A stretch of 64,000 nucleotides of DNA from Candidatus Woesearchaeota archaeon (GTDB lineage: Archaea; Nanobdellota; Nanobdellia; Woesearchaeales; UBA10216). The DNA lies in assembly GCA_016184345.1 (NCBI GenBank), contig JACPCV010000006.1, positions 64,065 to 128,064 on the forward strand, given 5' to 3'. This document shows, piece after piece, positions 29,487 through 52,351 of the stretch (position 1 is its first letter; the number at the start of each line of letters is the position of its first letter). A program made the translations under genes and the position numbers. The notes under the pieces are model-generated. The model was given only the letters and a program-made list of their open reading frames with translations. It had not been told where the DNA came from and did not search any database.

Positions 29487-29879
29487 TCAGTAAATTGCTA
29501 TGTCTTTTATCCTCTGAAAGTCGCTTTTGTTAGCTGTTACGATCGTCTGGCAGCCGTTAGTCAGCATTGCACCTGCGATAAGCGTGTCAAGAACATTTAT
29601 CATCATACCTTTGTTCTCAAGCTCCGCAGCTATGGCCGCTGCCTTTTTGGCAGCCCTTGGGTCCATATTTATTACGGGACAGGAATTGAAGAATGCCTCT
29701 GCGACCTCCATTGCTTTATTGTCCTTTCTTCTCAGGAGCCCGTGCATTACTTCGAAAACGTTTATGCTTGTTGTACATGGAAAAGTTTCTCTTGTAACAT
29801 CTGCTATTTGCTCTATCGCTGCCGATTTTCCTCTAAGAAAATCGATGATTAGCGTGCTATCCATGCACACATTTTTCAT
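29487..29879 (-). CDS. vapC: PIN-domain toxin
   Basis: MDSTLIIDFLRG... with conserved acidic residues, and C-terminal TIVTANKSDFQRI. ATGA overlap with the upstream antitoxin gene. Confidence 0.85.
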   Translation of the reverse strand: MKNVCMDSTLIIDFLRGKSAAIEQIADVTRETFPCTTSINVFEVMHGLLRRKDNKAMEVAEAFFNSCPVINMDPRAAKKAAAIAAELENKGMMINVLDTLIAGAMLTNGCQTIVTANKSDFQRIKDIAIY

Positions 29880-30124
29880 TTGAACCTCTCCTTGAAACGT
29901 TCCCTGAACTGCTTGGACGCGCGCGCACGCATCTGCCTGATGCCTGACTTAATCTCTTCCGTTTCCTCATCACTGAGGTAGCTTAAGGCTCCCGCAAACC
30001 GCATGATGTCCTGTTTGCCTCCTGTAATTCGCTTTATCTCCTCGCTGAAGCTTTCCTCTGGCCTCTTGAGGGCTTTCAGCCGCTCATACGCGTCCTTTGT
30101 CACAGTTATCGTTTTAGTCACCAT
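29876..30124 (-). CDS. vapB: VapB-type antitoxin (archaeal ribbon-helix-helix-like, 82 aa)
   Basis: MVTKTITVTKDAYERLKALKRPEESFSEEI resembles archaeal putative antitoxins paired with PIN toxins; 4-nt overlap with vapC. Confidence 0.7.
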   Translation of the reverse strand: MVTKTITVTKDAYERLKALKRPEESFSEEIKRITGGKQDIMRFAGALSYLSDEETEEIKSGIRQMRARASKQFRERFKERFK

Positions 30125-30150
30125 AAACGTATGTTTAAACATACGTGTAT

Positions 30151-32094: not shown

Positions 32095-32163
32095 TGTGCC
32101 TTAATTATCTGGTCTTCTTTTTGACAAAAACCTTTTAAATAGTATGTCTCAGCTATACCATTT

Positions 32164-32709
32164 ATGGCTAGCCCGAGCAAGGAGGAAAGCATACTGCAGC
32201 TCATTTTGGAGAGCAGCCCGCTGAAAGAATGGCACTTTGGAGAGATAGTGGCCGAATCTAAAGTCTCTAGGGCAGTGGCAAACAAATGGCTGAAAAAATA
32301 TGTTAAGGAAGGATTGCTTAAAAGGGTTAAAACTCAGGGCAGGTTTCCATATATAACAGCCGGAGGCAATAATCCTGTTTACCAATCCAGGAAGCGGCTG
32401 TACGCTTTGGAAATGCTTCATAAGAGCAGGTTGATGCAACAGCTGATTTCATTAAAAAGTGCAAAAACAGTGGTGATTTTTGGAAGCATTGCCAGGGGAG
32501 ACTGGTATAAAAGCTCAGACATAGACATATTCATATACGGCAGGGCTGAGGGGCTGAACAAAGGCCTTTATGAGTCTAGGTTAAAGAGAAGCATTGAGAT
32601 TCACGAGTTTGAAAGCCGGAAAGAGCTTAAGGAAGTAAAAACCGGCTTGCTGACAAACGTGCTCAACGGCTATCTGGTCAAAGGGCAAATGCAGGACATT
32701 ACCGGATGA
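32164..32709 (+). CDS. wHTH + minimal nucleotidyltransferase (MNT-like)
   Basis: NTase motif VVIFGSIARGDWYKSSDIDIFIYG (G-S ... D-x-D). N-terminal winged-helix-like segment. TATA-like TTTTAAATA about 28 nt upstream. Confidence 0.75.
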   Translation: MASPSKEESILQLILESSPLKEWHFGEIVAESKVSRAVANKWLKKYVKEGLLKRVKTQGRFPYITAGGNNPVYQSRKRLYALEMLHKSRLMQQLISLKSAKTVVIFGSIARGDWYKSSDIDIFIYGRAEGLNKGLYESRLKRSIEIHEFESRKELKEVKTGLLTNVLNGYLVKGQMQDITG

Positions 32710-32721
32710 TGTGGAGTAGAG

Positions 32722-33225
32722 TCACTTTACGCGCCTGCTTTCTTCTTCTTTCATTTTCTCTCCTATGACGTTTTTAAGAGCATTGATATGAAGCTCAAAA
32801 TTCAGCCTGAACTGTTTCCAGTCATCATATTTCAAAAGCTGCCCGCGGTAATTTATCGCGTTTCTTTTAAGCCTTACCGTTTCGAGGAATTCCCAGTTCA
32901 GCTCAAGCTCGGCATGCTTAAAGCAGATGTAGGCGTTCTTGCACTGGTGGCTGTCTGCTTCAATTCCATCAAACAAGAGAAAAGCTTCAATCAGCCCACG
33001 CAAGGATTCATAGTAGTCCCTGAAGACAAAAGTCCAGTCAGTGCTGTTCTTTGGGATGTCTTTTGACATGCCATTGATAAAGTCCAGCCCCTTCTCAGCA
33101 ACTGTTTTCAGTGATTTGATTAGTTCTAAGTCAATTGCCTTCTCTTTGAATTTGCCTGAGCTCATGCAAAGAGCGAATGTGCTTTTCAAATCGTCTATCC
33201 TGACCTTCATTATGCCTCTTCTCAT
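32722..33225 (-). CDS. HEPN-like domain protein
   Basis: All-helical, with the motif ETVRLKRNAINYRG (R-x4-Y type seen in PF05168-like HEPN). Last gene of the S8 / 97-aa / HEPN operon. Paralogous fragment at 52037..52351. Confidence 0.55.
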   Translation of the reverse strand: MRRGIMKVRIDDLKSTFALCMSSGKFKEKAIDLELIKSLKTVAEKGLDFINGMSKDIPKNSTDWTFVFRDYYESLRGLIEAFLLFDGIEADSHQCKNAYICFKHAELELNWEFLETVRLKRNAINYRGQLLKYDDWKQFRLNFELHINALKNVIGEKMKEEESRRVK

Positions 33226-33230
33226 TCAAT

Positions 33231-33524
33231 TTATGGTTTTGGCTGCTCAATGCCTTGCGCTCTCATGATTCCCTGCTCTTTCACAACATAGCCGTCCTTA
33301 ACCAACATGTCAATTATTTCCTTTTCTTTTATGACTGCAGCAATTGCCTTAACATACTCAAACTTTCTGAAGCCGAACTTCCCGCTGCCGTACTGCTGCA
33401 GCAGCTCATCCGCTTTCTGAAGAAGGTTGTCATAGCGTTGCTGCCGCTCAGCAGCATCAAGCCCCTTGGTTTCGGCATACACTATGTAAGCGTCCTTTAC
33501 AGTATTTTCCAGGTCATTGCTCAT
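33231..33524 (-). CDS. hypothetical protein (97 aa), translationally coupled to the subtilase
   Basis: ATGA overlap with the upstream S8 gene and a 5-nt gap to the downstream HEPN-like gene. Helical; no motif recognised. Confidence 0.5.
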   Translation of the reverse strand: MSNDLENTVKDAYIVYAETKGLDAAERQQRYDNLLQKADELLQQYGSGKFGFRKFEYVKAIAAVIKEKEIIDMLVKDGYVVKEQGIMRAQGIEQPKP

Positions 33525-34852
33525 GAGAACATCCTCCTCAGCTCAGCAACAGCATCATCTGCAAACCCTTTAAGGGCAGCGTCTGCCTTTTTTTCAAGCC
33601 GCAAATATCCTTTCAGCAGCGGCAGTAATGCCTTTTTGCCTGCATAATGGCTGTTTTCAGACAGGTAGCTTGCTATGTTGTCAACCCTCACCAATCCTGC
33701 GCCAAAGGTGTCGGCTTCGCCAAGCTTTTCAGCCTCTTTCTTCATCACATCCTCCAGACTGCTGCCCTCATGCGAAATTGAAAGTGCCAGTGCAAGGCTG
33801 CCTGCAACATGGGGCGAGGCCATTGATGTTCCGGTGAGTGTGGCATAACGCTCGTCCAAATAAGTTGATAATATGCCAACCCCGGGAGCTGCTATGTCGT
33901 TTGTTTCGTAGATGCTGCTGAAGTCAGGATGCCCAAGCTCTTCGTCAACAGCAGCAACGGCGATAACCGACTCCCCGAAAGCGGCGGGATAGTTTGCGCC
34001 GTAACCGTTGTTGCCCGCAGCCGCAACAAGGAGTATTCCCTGCTGCCATGCGTAGCTGCACACTTCTTCAAGGGCTTGCGATGCAACAGGGCTGCCAAAG
34101 CTCATGTTGGCAACATCAACCTTGTTTTTTATGCACCATTCTATTCCTGCTATGGCGTCTGCCTCGCTTCCTGAGCCGTTTTCATCCAGCACCCTAACGG
34201 CATACAATCCTGAGCCTGGCGCAACGCCGTAACCGACAGATGCTACTATTCCCGCGACGTGAGTGCCGTGGCCGTTCTCGTCCATCGGCTCTTCAGTGTT
34301 ATTTACAAAGTCATAGCCCTTGTCGCTGCCAAACCTGCCTCTAAGCTGGCTGTGGCTGTAGTCAATGCCGGTGTCTATGACTGCAACCTTAACACCATCG
34401 CCAGAGGCATATTGCTGCGCCTTGTACGCTCCTATTGCTTCAAGGTTCCACAGCGAGGATTTTGTTCTTGGCCTTTCAATAACCACTGCTGCTGTTGCTT
34501 TTCTGGCTTTTATCTTCGGGATGGAAAAGTTGTTTGAAACATCAATCCCTGATATTGCCGGAATAATATGCCTGAATGCCTTTTCAAACACGCTGTCGCT
34601 GACATTGCCTGATGACGCCTTCTGCAGTATGTCTGCATAGTCTGCATCACATTTTAAGCTGAGGTAAGGGACAAACTCATAGACATGCCTTACCTGCCCT
34701 ATCCTTTCAAGCTGCCGTGCAACCTCTTCCTTCCTTGCTGCCTCTGTCCCGATTATCAGCTCAAGCTCGCTCTTGCTGCCTTTGGCAGCTGTGATGGCAT
34801 CAGTTAAGGCGCGCTTTCTCCTCGCTGACAATGAAGCCGTGTTGCGCTGCAT
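33521..34852 (-). CDS. subtilisin-like serine protease (S8) without signal peptide, with I9-like propeptide
   Basis: Catalytic triad motifs VAVIDTGIDYSH, HGTHVAG and GTSMASPHVAG. N-terminus hydrophilic; extra ~60-aa helical C-terminal tail. Confidence 0.9.
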   Translation of the reverse strand: MQRNTASLSARRKRALTDAITAAKGSKSELELIIGTEAARKEEVARQLERIGQVRHVYEFVPYLSLKCDADYADILQKASSGNVSDSVFEKAFRHIIPAISGIDVSNNFSIPKIKARKATAAVVIERPRTKSSLWNLEAIGAYKAQQYASGDGVKVAVIDTGIDYSHSQLRGRFGSDKGYDFVNNTEEPMDENGHGTHVAGIVASVGYGVAPGSGLYAVRVLDENGSGSEADAIAGIEWCIKNKVDVANMSFGSPVASQALEEVCSYAWQQGILLVAAAGNNGYGANYPAAFGESVIAVAAVDEELGHPDFSSIYETNDIAAPGVGILSTYLDERYATLTGTSMASPHVAGSLALALSISHEGSSLEDVMKKEAEKLGEADTFGAGLVRVDNIASYLSENSHYAGKKALLPLLKGYLRLEKKADAALKGFADDAVAELRRMFS

Positions 34853-35008
34853 GTACTACAGCGTCATTTGAAGTTTAAAGTGCTTTGCGGTGGAAAAGCC
34901 GAAAATACGGCGGAGAATTCGCAAAATATCCGTTGCTGCCGGGAAAATTTTCGGAAAAAAGCTGTTTTTGTGAAAATTATCCGCTTTTCCTGAATTTTCC
35001 ACGAGGGA

Positions 35009-51979: not shown

Positions 51980-52036
51980 GCTGCATATACTGCTACTGTG
52001 GTTTAAAAAACTATCCACAAAAGAAAAAAGCGCCGT

Positions 52037-52351
52037 GTGGAAGATTCCGACGTGGATTCAGCAAACATTCTCAGGAAAAACCTTCAAAAGAGCAGCAGCC
52101 AGTGGAATAGCGTTTATAAGCTGTATTACGACGCGTTGCACGAATTGGCAGAGTCCTTCTTGCAGTTTGAAAAGGCAAAAATCGACAACCACCAGTGCTT
52201 ATTTTCATATCTTTGTGAAAAACACCCGCAACTGGAGTTCAGCTGGGACTTCTTTGAGAAGGTGAGGACAAAGAGGAACGGGATTAACTATTATGGCACG
52301 CCAGTAGATTCAGACGACTGGAAAGATGCGGAACTTCAGTTTAATTTATAG
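52037..52351 (+). pseudogene. truncated paralog of the HEPN-like gene at 32722..33225
   Basis: ...DNHQCLFSYLCEKHPQLEFSWDFFEKVRTKRNGINYYG...DDWK aligns with ...DSHQCKNAYICFKHAELELNWEFLETVRLKRNAINYRG...DDWK. It lacks ~55 N-terminal and ~25 C-terminal residues. Its stop codon lies inside element C. Confidence 0.55.

What the first reader, a model, noticed from the sequence alone, without database searches (positions are those of the whole stretch)
32164..34852. Cytoplasmic subtilase / 97-aa protein / HEPN-like operon with a convergent wHTH-nucleotidyltransferase
On the minus strand, three genes are tightly coupled. An S8 protease with an intact D/H/S triad has an I9-like propeptide, no signal peptide and an extra helical C-terminal tail. 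An unknown 97-aa protein follows with an ATGA overlap, then a HEPN-like protein after a 5-nt gap. A wHTH + minimal nucleotidyltransferase gene converges on the HEPN gene with a 12-nt spacer. MNT/HEPN pairs are established toxin-antitoxin systems, and protease-coupled effectors are a recurring theme in prokaryotic defence. I do not recognise a subtilase fused into a HEPN/MNT neighbourhood as a described system.
Basis: inference. Interest (0 to 1): 0.6.

Follow-up and report, generated by a model that had tools for sequence, protein, structure and literature searches.

The report
Subtilase pair beside inserted HEPN cassette
The four genes are real, but they are two unrelated units lying side by side in a tiny (DPANN) archaeon: an inherited pair made of a cytoplasmic subtilisin-type protease and a small partner that looks like a detached protease "safety cap", and a mobile toxin-antitoxin-like nucleotidyltransferase/HEPN cassette that was dropped in later, so this is not a new protease-coupled defence system.

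Summary
The interpretation as one system is not supported.

(1) **The S8 protease and the 97-aa protein are a vertically inherited, translationally coupled pair.**
- The pair sits at the same chromosomal place (GatB…S8-p97 converging on Mre11) in about 20 related Woesearchaeota genomes.
- At least 10 of those loci have no HEPN or nucleotidyltransferase (NT) gene.
- The 97-aa protein folds as β-α-β-β-α-β. Its best structural and profile matches are subtilase propeptides, but all of them are weak.
- I read it as a stand-alone propeptide-like inhibitor or chaperone (about 60%).

(2) **The wHTH-nucleotidyltransferase and the 167-aa protein are a separate mobile cassette.**
- The 167-aa protein has a HEPN fold (pLDDT 96.5), but its motif is R-x4-Y, not R-x4-6-H.
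- The pair belongs to PADLOC candidate system PDC-M05, an MNT/HEPN toxin-antitoxin-like module.
- In 12 of 12 other loci it is a co-directional NT→HEPN operon with no protease nearby.
- It is patchy, multicopy and often pseudogenised.
- Here it is an insertion. Its dS is 0.27-0.46 against 1.0-1.5 for the flanks. A relative keeps a duplicated p97 3' scar. Another lineage carries MazE-PIN in the same slot. In one lineage the cassette is decaying while S8-p97 stays intact.

Only the convergent rearrangement of the cassette is unusual. Interest is modest.

The parts
33521..34852 (-). Cytoplasmic S8A subtilase, 443 aa. It has an N-terminal extension of about 130 aa of unknown fold, a catalytic domain at residues 134-393 (D160, H195, S343, N281), and a genus-specific C-terminal tail at 394-443.
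   Evidence: Pfam Peptidase_S8 8e-50. Closest solved structures are the AK.1 protease, subtilisin DY/Carlsberg/BPN' and thermitase, E about 1e-50. No signal-like hydrophobic stretch. An orthologue is present in 23/25 family genomes. dN/dS 0.12-0.16.
33231..33524 (-). 97-aa partner (p97), translationally coupled to the protease by an ATGA overlap. It has a ferredoxin-like β-α-β-β-α-β fold with a disordered C-terminal tail. Predicted stand-alone propeptide-like inhibitor or chaperone.
   Evidence: AF2 mean pLDDT 79.6, core 87-94. Foldseek top hits are PfSUB1 and its prodomain, E about 0.1. The family profile's top PDB hit is the subtilisin E propeptide, E = 0.04. A small overlapping downstream ORF is found at nearly every S8 orthologue. 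dN/dS 0.13-0.19.
32722..33225 (-). HEPN-fold protein (p167; likely true start at 33210, giving 162 aa). This is the B component of a PDC-M05-type MNT/HEPN module. Family motif: R118-x2-R121-N122-x3-Y126-x-G128, plus N92-H93, Y72 and W111.
   Evidence: AF2 pLDDT 96.5. Foldseek hits are almost all HEPN proteins: 2hsb at E 2e-3 with probability 1.0, HepT-type toxins, and sacsin HEPN. Conservation. 23/72 family members hit PADLOC PDC-M05B. dN/dS about 0.1.
32164..32709 (+). wHTH + minimal nucleotidyltransferase (181 aa; G107-S…D119-x-D121). This is the A component of the PDC-M05 module, the predicted antitoxin or modifier. Here it converges on p167 instead of lying upstream of it.
   Evidence: Pfam NTP_transf_2 2e-9, Polbeta 1.4e-8. 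PADLOC PDC-M05A 4.4e-14. NCBIfam MntA 3e-5, below cutoff. Co-directional NT→HEPN in 12/12 other loci.
32128..33265 (.). Extent of the inserted cassette. This block is 88-93% identical in DNA to relatives L001 and L003, against about 65-80% in the flanks. Its right edge lies in the last ~12 codons of p97.
   Evidence: Sliding-window identity. dS 0.27-0.46 in the cassette against 1.0-1.5 in S8, p97, Mre11 and GatB.
32133..32142 (+). TATA-like box (TTTTAAATAG), 22-31 nt upstream of the NT start codon. It suggests the NT gene has its own promoter and a short or leaderless transcript.
   Evidence: Read from the sequence. Inference only.
34873..34880 (-). TATA-like box (CTTTAAAC), 21-28 nt upstream of the S8 start codon. 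Probable promoter of the S8-p97(-p167) transcript.
   Evidence: Read from the sequence. Inference only. The short p97-p167 spacer leaves no room for a promoter, and none was seen in it.

Best explanation
Two independent gene modules are juxtaposed in the core chromosome of a Woesearchaeota-type (DPANN) archaeon.

**Module A (old, vertically inherited): protease plus partner.**
- It consists of a signal-less subtilisin/thermitase-type S8 protease and a translationally coupled 97-aa partner.
- The partner has the β-α-β-β-α-β fold of subtilase propeptides.
- Inferred mechanism: p97 is made in step with the protease. It docks on the catalytic domain like a prodomain, with its conserved Y-x-V-E-x-Q segment and flexible C-terminal tail at or near the active-site cleft.
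- It would keep the cytoplasmic protease latent and/or help it fold, until p97 is degraded or displaced.

**Module B (younger, mobile): a PDC-M05-type MNT/HEPN toxin-antitoxin-like cassette.**
- It consists of a wHTH-minimal nucleotidyltransferase and a HEPN-fold protein with a non-canonical R-x4-Y motif.
- Inferred mechanism: the HEPN protein is the growth-inhibiting component, acting as an RNase through an altered site or by binding RNA.
- The NT protein would neutralise it by binding or nucleotidylylation of a tyrosine, and would autoregulate through its wHTH domain.
- The cassette landed in the 3'-3' gap between p97 and mre11. In this sub-clade it was rearranged: the HEPN gene now rides on the protease transcript, and the NT gene is transcribed convergently from its own promoter.

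**Shown:** gene structures, folds, synteny, separate histories, purifying selection.
**Inferred:** inhibition or chaperoning by p97, toxicity and neutralisation in module B, and the transcript structure.

**Confidence by part:** two separable modules about 0.9; module B as a PDC-M05/MNT-HEPN toxin-antitoxin-like cassette about 0.75; p97 as a prodomain-like inhibitor or chaperone about 0.6.
For: **The modules are separable.**
- S8-p97 lies between GatB/Ser-hydrolase/PadR and a convergent Mre11 in 10 same-genus loci and in other genera. Nine of these have nothing between p97 and Mre11.
- L004-6 carry MazE-PIN in that slot instead.
- NT→HEPN is a stand-alone, co-directional pair in 12/12 other contexts.
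- The p167 family is patchy, with 0-4 copies per genome and many copies carrying stops. Its closest copies (70-74%) are in other genera and families.
- dS of p167 and NT is 0.27-0.46, against 1.0-1.5 for S8, p97, Mre11 and GatB. The high-identity block is 32128-33265.
- L001 keeps a duplicated 3' end of p97 beyond the NT gene, which is an insertion scar.
- In L088 the NT gene has lost its wHTH, gained a stop and changed DxD to DxN. There p167 has lost its ATG, while S8 and p97 are intact.

**p97 and the propeptide reading.**
- AF2 topology.
- Foldseek rank 1 and rank 5 are PfSUB1 and its prodomain.
- The profile's top hit among 177,635 PDB sequences is the subtilisin E propeptide, followed by the BPN' prosegment and pro-subtilisin E, all aligned in register.
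- hhalign against archaeal I9 domains aligns in the correct register, P = 0.04.
- A small overlapping downstream ORF with Y[IF][IV]R…GY.VE.Q is present at nearly all S8 orthologues.
- The Y-V-E-x-D/Q segment parallels the helix-capping Glu69/Asp71 of the BPN' propeptide (PMC6993865).
- A bacterial precedent exists: a chaperone/inhibitor encoded just downstream of its S8 protease, ASP/ORF2 (PMC5638518).

**Module B.**
- HEPN fold.
- PDC-M05A and PDC-M05B matches.
- PDC-M05 is described as NTase + HEPN, toxin-antitoxin-like, and enriched in archaea (PMC12988326).
Against: **Against the p97 reading.**
- All similarity of p97 to propeptides is marginal: Foldseek E about 0.1 with TM 0.44-0.55, HMM E = 0.04, and hhalign probability 1%.
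- Pfam Inhibitor_I9 does not detect p97, even in a six-frame genome search at E ≤ 10.
- Generic ferredoxin-like folds (EF-G domain, HMA, RRM) score about as well in Foldseek.
- The protease already has a 130-aa N-terminal extension that may be its own prodomain, so the need for p97 is unclear.

**Against the module B reading.**
- The canonical catalytic His of R-x4-6-H is replaced by Tyr.
- The window's own p167 hits no HEPN or PDC-M05B model.
- No toxicity or antiviral role has been shown for PDC-M05.

**Against full independence of the modules.**
- The convergent arrangement, with p167 placed directly behind p97, is kept under purifying selection in four lineages. So some functional coupling cannot be excluded.
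Confidence: 0.7

Rival explanations
1. One reading: all four genes form one protease-coupled HEPN/MNT defence or toxin-antitoxin system. For example, the subtilase would activate the HEPN effector or destroy the MNT antitoxin on a signal.
For: The HEPN gene follows p97 by 5-20 nt, with no room for its own promoter. The S8-p97-HEPN←NT arrangement recurs in four intact lineages of the genus under purifying selection. Protease-coupled effectors exist elsewhere, for example IetAS; the IetS models hit the catalytic domain only weakly.
Against: Both halves occur alone far more often than together. The cassette is younger than its flanks. Another lineage has an unrelated TA pair (MazE-PIN) in the same slot. 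In L088 the cassette decays while S8-p97 is untouched. The protease is a family-wide core gene.
Confidence: 0.07
2. p97 is not a prodomain mimic. It would be another kind of co-expressed subunit: a ligand-binding ACT/ferredoxin-like regulator, an adaptor that delivers substrates, a dedicated substrate or precursor, or a functionally unrelated small protein.
For: Pfam I9 and ORF2 models do not hit it. Many ferredoxin-like folds match equally well. The protease N-terminal extension could already supply a prodomain. The C-terminal tail of p97 varies between species.
Against: Two independent methods (structure and sequence profile) both rank subtilase propeptides first. The pair shows strict adjacency and start/stop overlap with an S8 protease across a whole family. 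The conserved Y-x-V-E-x-Q segment lies at the position of the propeptide capping motif.
Confidence: 0.3
3. The NT/p167 pair is a two-subunit nucleotidyltransferase, with a catalytic MNT subunit and a HEPN-like substrate-binding subunit, as in kanamycin nucleotidyltransferase. It would have a housekeeping or resistance role and would not be a toxin-antitoxin or defence module.
For: The catalytic His of the HEPN RNase motif is missing. An aminoglycoside adenylyltransferase (AadA, 6fzb) appears among the weaker fold hits. The family is unusually well conserved, 73-92% among hundreds of Woesearchaeota proteins.
Against: Its distribution is patchy and multicopy, with many pseudogenes and incongruent similarity, and the cassette decays in L088. 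These are the marks of a selfish or accessory module. HEPN proteins without the motif have been reported to be toxic (PMC3710099). The wHTH fusion suggests autoregulation, as in TA operons.
Confidence: 0.15

Closest known systems
Aeromonas sobria serine protease ASP and its external chaperone ORF2 (PMC5638518; Kobayashi et al. 2015, cited there)
   Same: A small protein is encoded immediately downstream of an S8 protease gene. It acts on the protease in trans as a temporary inhibitor and folding helper, with its C-terminal tail in the active site.
   Different: ASP is secreted, kexin-like and lacks a propeptide. The window's protease is cytoplasmic and subtilisin/thermitase-like, with a 130-aa N-terminal extension. 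p97 shows no sequence match to ORF2: Pfam PF18492 is not among the hits. The organism is archaeal, and the two genes overlap by ATGA.
Stand-alone subtilisin propeptide-like inhibitors (MEROPS I9 type): Pleurotus POIA1, yeast proteinase B inhibitor, Arabidopsis SPI-1, Toxoplasma MIC5, Plasmodium SUB1-ProM (PMC6993865)
   Same: A small free-standing β-α-β-β-α-β protein with little or no sequence similarity to true propeptides. In SUB1-ProM the gene lies next to subtilase genes. A conserved acidic/polar pair sits in the last strand, at the position of the helix-capping residues.
   Different: All characterised examples are eukaryotic. Here the gene is operonic, translationally coupled and cytoplasmic, in an archaeon. 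Inhibition has not been tested.
Bacillus subtilis intracellular subtilisin Isp1 and its inhibitor IPI (PMC3901451)
   Same: A cytoplasmic subtilisin held in check by a dedicated small protein inhibitor.
   Different: IPI has an all-β Ig-like fold. Isp1 is gated by a short N-terminal extension. The two genes are not translationally coupled.
PADLOC candidate system PDC-M05 (nucleotidyltransferase M05A + HEPN M05B; PMC12988326)
   Same: The NT gene hits M05A (4.4e-14). Relatives of p167 hit M05B (best 1e-8). The system is archaeal-enriched and common in DPANN-type small genomes. Its antiviral role is unproven.
   Different: The window's p167 itself scores below every M05B model. The gene order is convergent and the HEPN gene is embedded in another operon, instead of the usual NT→HEPN bicistron.
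Type VII HepT/MntA (HEPN/MNT) toxin-antitoxin systems (PMC7641770; PDB 5yep, 6m6w, 7ae9)
   Same: A minimal nucleotidyltransferase is paired with a HEPN-fold protein. The fold hits include these toxins. A conserved Tyr lies in the R-N-x3-Y(-Y)-G segment, near where HepT is AMPylated.
   Different: p167 is not a DUF86/HepT family member. It has R-x4-Y instead of R-x4-H-x-Y. The NT protein carries an N-terminal wHTH. The NCBIfam MntA score is 23.9 against a cutoff of 60.

Membership tests
Peptidase family S8 (subtilases) | Match to the family profile, and a Asp-His-Ser triad in that order with an oxyanion Asn | tested here: met
   Pfam PF00082 8.3e-50 over the full profile. D160, H195, S343 and N281 lie in canonical motifs. 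PDB subtilisins match at E about 1e-50.
Intracellular (signal-less) subtilases | No signal peptide or membrane anchor | tested here: met
   Maximum Kyte-Doolittle (15-residue window) in the first 60 residues is 0.48. Orthologue N-termini are charged. No dedicated signal-peptide predictor was available.
MEROPS I9 / Pfam PF05922 Inhibitor_I9 (for p97) | Match to the I9 sequence profile | tested here: not met
   No hit for any of 23 family members at E ≤ 10. The six-frame search of 26 genomes hits only the propeptides of other, large subtilases.
MEROPS I9 / propeptide-like inhibitors (for p97) | β-α-β-β-α-β open-sandwich fold resembling subtilase prodomains | tested here: met
   AF2 gives elements E12-17, H24-45, E50-55, E60-65, H68-76, E79-83. 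Top Foldseek hits are PfSUB1 (8pol_B) and its prodomain (4lvn_P), but at E about 0.1 and TM 0.44-0.55.
MEROPS I9 / propeptide-like inhibitors (for p97) | Detectable remote homology to bona fide propeptides | tested here: inconclusive
   The profile's top PDB hits are the subtilisin E propeptide (E = 0.04), the BPN' prosegment (0.12) and pro-subtilisin E (0.15), all in register. hhalign against archaeal I9 domains gives P = 0.04 and probability 1%.
MEROPS I9 / propeptide-like inhibitors (for p97) | Binds and inhibits, or chaperones, a cognate subtilase | not testable with these tools
   Only genetic linkage is available: start/stop overlap with S8 at nearly all orthologous loci.
ASP/ORF2 external chaperone family (Pfam PF18492) | Sequence match to ORF2 | tested here: not met
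   PF18492 is absent from the Pfam hits of all 23 p97 family members at E ≤ 10.
ASP/ORF2 external chaperone family | Gene immediately downstream of an S8 protease that lacks its own propeptide | tested here: inconclusive
   The downstream position is met. Whether the protease's 130-aa N-terminal extension is a propeptide is unknown: there is no I9 signal and no structure was predicted.
HEPN superfamily (for p167) | All-α HEPN fold | tested here: met
   AF2 pLDDT 96.5. Foldseek: AF_0298 HEPN 2hsb at E 2e-3 with probability 1.0, then HepT-type toxins, sacsin HEPN (TM 0.57/0.67), ST0689 and YutE.
HEPN superfamily (for p167) | Catalytic R-x4-6-H motif | tested here: not met
   The family consensus is R118-x2-R121-N122-x3-Y126-x-G128, with Tyr in 56/63 sequences where His is expected. 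A separate N92-H93 is conserved in 58/72. The literature notes such variants in the classical MNT-associated HEPN family.
HEPN, Pfam PF05168 | Profile match | tested here: not met
   The window protein has no hit at E ≤ 0.1. Only 2 of 72 relatives reach E about 1e-3.
PADLOC PDC-M05 (NTase + HEPN candidate defence system) | A-component profile match | tested here: met
   PDC-M05A 4.4e-14 and 2.1e-11 over residues 8-149.
PADLOC PDC-M05 | B-component profile match | tested here: inconclusive
   The window's p167 has no hit at E ≤ 0.1. Of its 72 aligned relatives, 23, 17 and 14 hit three PDC-M05B models, best 1.3e-8.
PADLOC PDC-M05 / MNT-HEPN TA modules | Adjacent, co-directional two-gene operon | tested here: not met
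   In the window and in L001, L003 and L089 the genes converge. In 12/12 other loci they are co-directional NT→HEPN.
[quoted passage not shown] | MNT with G[GS]-x9-13-D-x-[DE]; DUF86 toxin with R-x4-H-x-Y; AMPylation of the toxin | tested here: inconclusive
   The MNT motif is present, but NCBIfam MntA scores 23.9 bits against a cutoff of 60. The toxin is not DUF86 and lacks the His. AMPylation and toxicity are not testable here.

The most novel reading that the evidence does not exclude
In this sub-clade the mobile MNT/HEPN cassette may have been functionally rewired into the protease operon.
- The HEPN gene lost its own promoter and is now expressed only with the S8-p97 transcript.
- The NT gene is transcribed convergently from its own promoter.
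- The subtilase, released from its p97 'cap' under stress or infection, would then control the balance between HEPN and its nucleotidyltransferase, for example by degrading NT.

That would be a protease-gated HEPN switch. Separately, p97 would be the first archaeal, cytoplasmic, operon-encoded prodomain mimic.
Probability: 0.07. Interest if true: 0.7.

Novelty: new variant of a known kind. Interest (0 to 1): 0.35.

Why it matters
- **It removes a false lead.** The apparent 'subtilase-HEPN-MNT system' is an accident of insertion.
- **It shows how such accidents can be recognised.** The signs are separate synteny, a three-fold lower dS in the cassette, an insertion scar, an alternative cargo in the same slot, and independent decay.
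- **It adds an archaeal, cytoplasmic example to an under-described theme.** Subtilases with a separately encoded prodomain-like partner have been shown experimentally only for Aeromonas ASP/ORF2 and for a few eukaryotic inhibitors. In a 0.9-Mb symbiont-type genome, a conserved latent intracellular protease with its own 'cap' is a tractable target for learning how DPANN archaea control proteolysis.
- **It documents natural variation in PDC-M05.** The window holds a rearranged (convergent) PDC-M05 cassette, and a relative holds a decaying one. This is useful for anyone testing that candidate system.

Tried and rejected
**Searches that found nothing**
- Pfam, NCBIfam and PADLOC scans of p97 and p167 gave no hits for the window proteins.
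- A profile of the p167 family against PDB sequences returned only designed helical proteins, so it was uninformative.
- A Pfam scan of the protease N-terminus (residues 1-146) and C-terminal tail found nothing.
- A profile of the protease N-terminal region against the PDB found nothing relevant.
- A profile search of 5.8 billion proteins with the p97 family found 53 clusters. None carries a Pfam annotation, so there is no bridge to I9.

**Tests that were negative or marginal**
- hhalign of the p97 family against the protease's own N-terminal region gave probability 1%. So p97 is not a recognisable copy of the cis extension.
- hhalign of the N-terminal region against archaeal I9 domains gave P = 0.46.
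- Pfam I9 searched six-frame across 26 related genomes hit other, large surface subtilases, but never p97 or this protease.

**An argument I dropped**
- I first read the absence of both S8 and p97 from two same-genus genomes (G006, G008) as co-loss.
- Those assemblies also lack Mre11, so the absence is uninformative.

**A reading I considered and rejected**
- p97 as a RiPP-like precursor. The genome has no modifying enzymes nearby, and the conserved part of p97 is a folded domain.

Full report
**1. Observation**

The four ORFs are present exactly as described.
- S8 protease: 33521-34852(-), 443 aa.
- 97-aa ORF (p97): 33231-33524(-), overlapping the protease stop by ATGA.
- 167-aa ORF (p167): 32722-33225(-).
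- 181-aa ORF (NT): 32164-32709(+). Its stop lies 12 nt from the p167 stop.

The protease matches Pfam Peptidase_S8 at 8e-50.
- It carries D160, H195 and S343, with oxyanion N281.
- It has no hydrophobic N-terminal segment.
- Its catalytic domain (residues 134-393) is closest to the AK.1 protease, subtilisin DY/Carlsberg/BPN' and thermitase, at E about 1e-50.

NT matches NTP_transf_2 and Polbeta, and weakly MarR-type wHTH. It has the G-S…D-x-D motif.

There are three corrections.
- The likely start of p167 is M6 (ATG at 33210, preceded by AGAGG), because all homologues begin there.
- The 'I9-like' nature of the protease N-terminus could not be verified.
- The C-terminal tail of the protease is specific to this genus.

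**2. Organism and setting**

Homologues are annotated as Woesearchaeota or Nanoarchaeota. The assembly is 0.88 Mb. The neighbourhood is housekeeping: GatB, a serine hydrolase, PadR, a nitroreductase, Mre11, an AsnC regulator, VapBC and MscS. It is collinear with relatives. This is core chromosome, not an island.

**3. The protease and p97 form an old, inherited pair**
- In ten same-genus genomes, and in further genera of the family, S8 is followed by a small ORF whose start overlaps the protease stop by 4-13 nt. The pair converges on mre11.
- A profile built from p97 homologues finds the downstream ORF in more genera. The aligned family keeps Y13, G78-Y79 and a Y-x-V-E-x-Q segment.
- The protease orthologue is present in 23 of 25 family genomes and in several other families of the order.
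- Both genes are under purifying selection (dN/dS 0.12-0.19).
- Nine of the genus-level loci have nothing between p97 and mre11.

**4. What p97 looks like**
- AlphaFold2 on 23 sequences gives a β-α-β-β-α-β domain with core pLDDT 87-94 and a disordered tail from residue 86.
- Foldseek against the PDB ranks Plasmodium SUB1 with its prodomain first and the isolated prodomain fifth. E is about 0.1, TM is 0.44-0.55, and other ferredoxin-like domains score close behind.
- A profile of 20 diverse family members was searched against 177,635 PDB sequences. The subtilisin E propeptide ranks first (E = 0.04), followed by the BPN' prosegment and pro-subtilisin E. All are aligned in the expected register: YIV…, then KFEY-x-A-x-AA…, then the second helix.
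- hhalign against I9 domains taken from other subtilases of related archaea aligns the same elements, at P = 0.04.
- Pfam Inhibitor_I9 and the ORF2 model do not detect p97.

So sequence-profile membership of I9 is not met. The fold, the two independent top ranks and the strict genetic coupling all point to a stand-alone propeptide-like partner.

The literature describes such proteins as lacking significant sequence similarity to true propeptides, and lists only eukaryotic examples (PMC6993865). A bacterial precedent for a chaperone/inhibitor encoded just downstream of its S8 protease is Aeromonas ASP/ORF2 (PMC5638518). I put the inhibitor/chaperone reading at about 60%.

**5. p167 and NT are a separate, mobile module**
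- AlphaFold2 on 72 sequences gives pLDDT 96.5.
- Nearly all meaningful Foldseek hits are HEPN proteins: AF_0298 (E 2e-3, probability 1.0), HepT-type toxins, sacsin HEPN and ST0689.
- The family conserves R118, R121-N122, Y126, G128, N92-H93, Y72 and W111. The motif is therefore R-x4-Y, not R-x4-6-H.
- Such variants, with a conserved His elsewhere, have been noted in the classical MNT-associated HEPN family. Motif-less HEPN proteins have also been reported as toxic (PMC3710099).
- NT hits PADLOC PDC-M05A at 4.4e-14. Of p167's 72 aligned relatives, 23 hit PDC-M05B, although the window protein itself does not.
- PDC-M05 is described as an NTase + HEPN, toxin-antitoxin-like candidate that is enriched in archaea and not yet validated (PMC12988326).

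**6. Evidence that the two modules are independent**

(a) In 12 of 12 other loci the pair is a co-directional NT→HEPN bicistron, in unrelated contexts and with no protease.

(b) The family is patchy, with 0-4 copies per genome and many copies carrying stops. The closest copies (70-74%) lie in other genera and families, while most same-genus genomes lack a close copy.

(c) Between the window and L001/L003, dS is 0.27-0.46 for p167 and NT. It is 1.0-1.5 for S8, p97, Mre11 and GatB. The high-identity block runs from about 32128 to 33265, ending inside the last codons of p97.

(d) L001 keeps a second copy of the p97 3' end ('…FEYLKAIIAVIKEKEIIDALLKEGYVVKEQGKMRAF*') between NT and mre11. A duplicated flank of this kind is expected after integration by recombination within p97.

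(e) In L004-L006 the same gap holds MazE-PIN and a transglutaminase-like gene.

(f) In L088 the cassette is decaying: NT lacks its wHTH, has a stop and has DxD changed to DxN, and p167 has ATG changed to CTG. S8 and p97 are intact there.

The full S8-p97-HEPN←NT arrangement is intact in four lineages of one genus: the window, L001/L002, L003 and L089/L090.

**7. What remains odd**
- In this sub-clade the cassette is rearranged. The HEPN gene lies directly behind p97 with no space for a promoter.
- NT is inverted downstream of it, with its own TATA-like box.
- Both genes are still under purifying selection (dN/dS about 0.1-0.18).
- A simple inversion of a canonical NT→HEPN operon cannot produce this order.
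- A functional link between protease and cassette is therefore not excluded, but nothing supports it. I give it about 7%.

**8. Mechanism, and what is shown versus inferred**

Shown:
- The gene structures, folds and synteny.
- The separate evolutionary histories of the two modules.
- Purifying selection on all four genes.

Inferred:
- p97 binds the catalytic domain as a prodomain does. It would hold a cytoplasmic subtilase latent and/or assist its folding.
- p167 is the harmful component of a PDC-M05/MNT-HEPN module.
- NT neutralises p167 by binding it or by nucleotidylylation of a tyrosine in the R-N-x3-Y-Y-G segment.
- NT autoregulates through its wHTH domain.

**9. Novelty and verdict**
- The MNT/HEPN part is a member of a catalogued candidate family, in an unusual orientation.
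- The S8-p97 part is an archaeal, cytoplasmic variant of a known principle (trans-encoded prodomain-like partners). Its sequence family is small (53 clusters) and undescribed.
- Earlier notes of this scan report similar free-standing prodomain-like genes next to subtilases in other prokaryotes. I did not check those notes myself. They are leads, not evidence, and they suggest the theme is common rather than rare.

Noticed in passing
L001:7390-7539 (relative of the window; the equivalent window position, about 32095-32163, is deleted): A second, partial copy of the p97 3' end (about 40 codons, from FEY… to the stop) lies between the NT gene and mre11. This gives a direct duplication flanking the inserted HEPN/NT cassette. 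It looks like the scar of a Campbell-type integration through homology within p97.
   Followed up: partly
L004:6427-8185, with the same in L005 and L006: In another lineage the p97/mre11 gap carries MazE-PIN and a transglutaminase-core/DUF553 gene instead of HEPN/NT. The gap between the two convergent 3' ends seems to be a recurrent landing site for accessory modules.
   Followed up: partly
window 52031-52348 (+): A second, decayed paralogue of p167 (42% identity, one in-frame TAG, residues 40-145 only). No NT gene is detectable anywhere else in the window.
   Followed up: partly
L088:3814-4652: A natural decay series of the cassette. NT is reduced to residues 70-181, with an internal stop and DxD changed to DxN. 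The p167 start codon is mutated to CTG. This fits loss of an accessory toxin-antitoxin-like module after the toxin is inactivated.
   Followed up: yes
Orthologues in other genera of the family stop near residue 400.
   Followed up: no
L009:5806-6871 and L012:9835-10471: Other Woesearchaeota contigs carry two different NT + small-helical-protein pairs within a few kb of each other. In L009 one pair lies next to a Y1 transposase. This suggests local clustering of paralogous MNT/HEPN-like modules.
   Followed up: no
window 29487-30142 (-): A VapB (PF02697) / VapC (PIN) pair with a 4-nt overlap lies 2 kb from the finding. It is conserved at the same position in most same-genus relatives (46-66% identity for VapC), so it behaves as a resident toxin-antitoxin pair rather than a recently acquired one.
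   Followed up: no
genomes G006 and G008 (same genus): Both assemblies lack the S8 orthologue, p97 and also Mre11. Either the whole segment is missing from these 82-88% complete assemblies, or it has been deleted. I could not tell which.
   Followed up: partly
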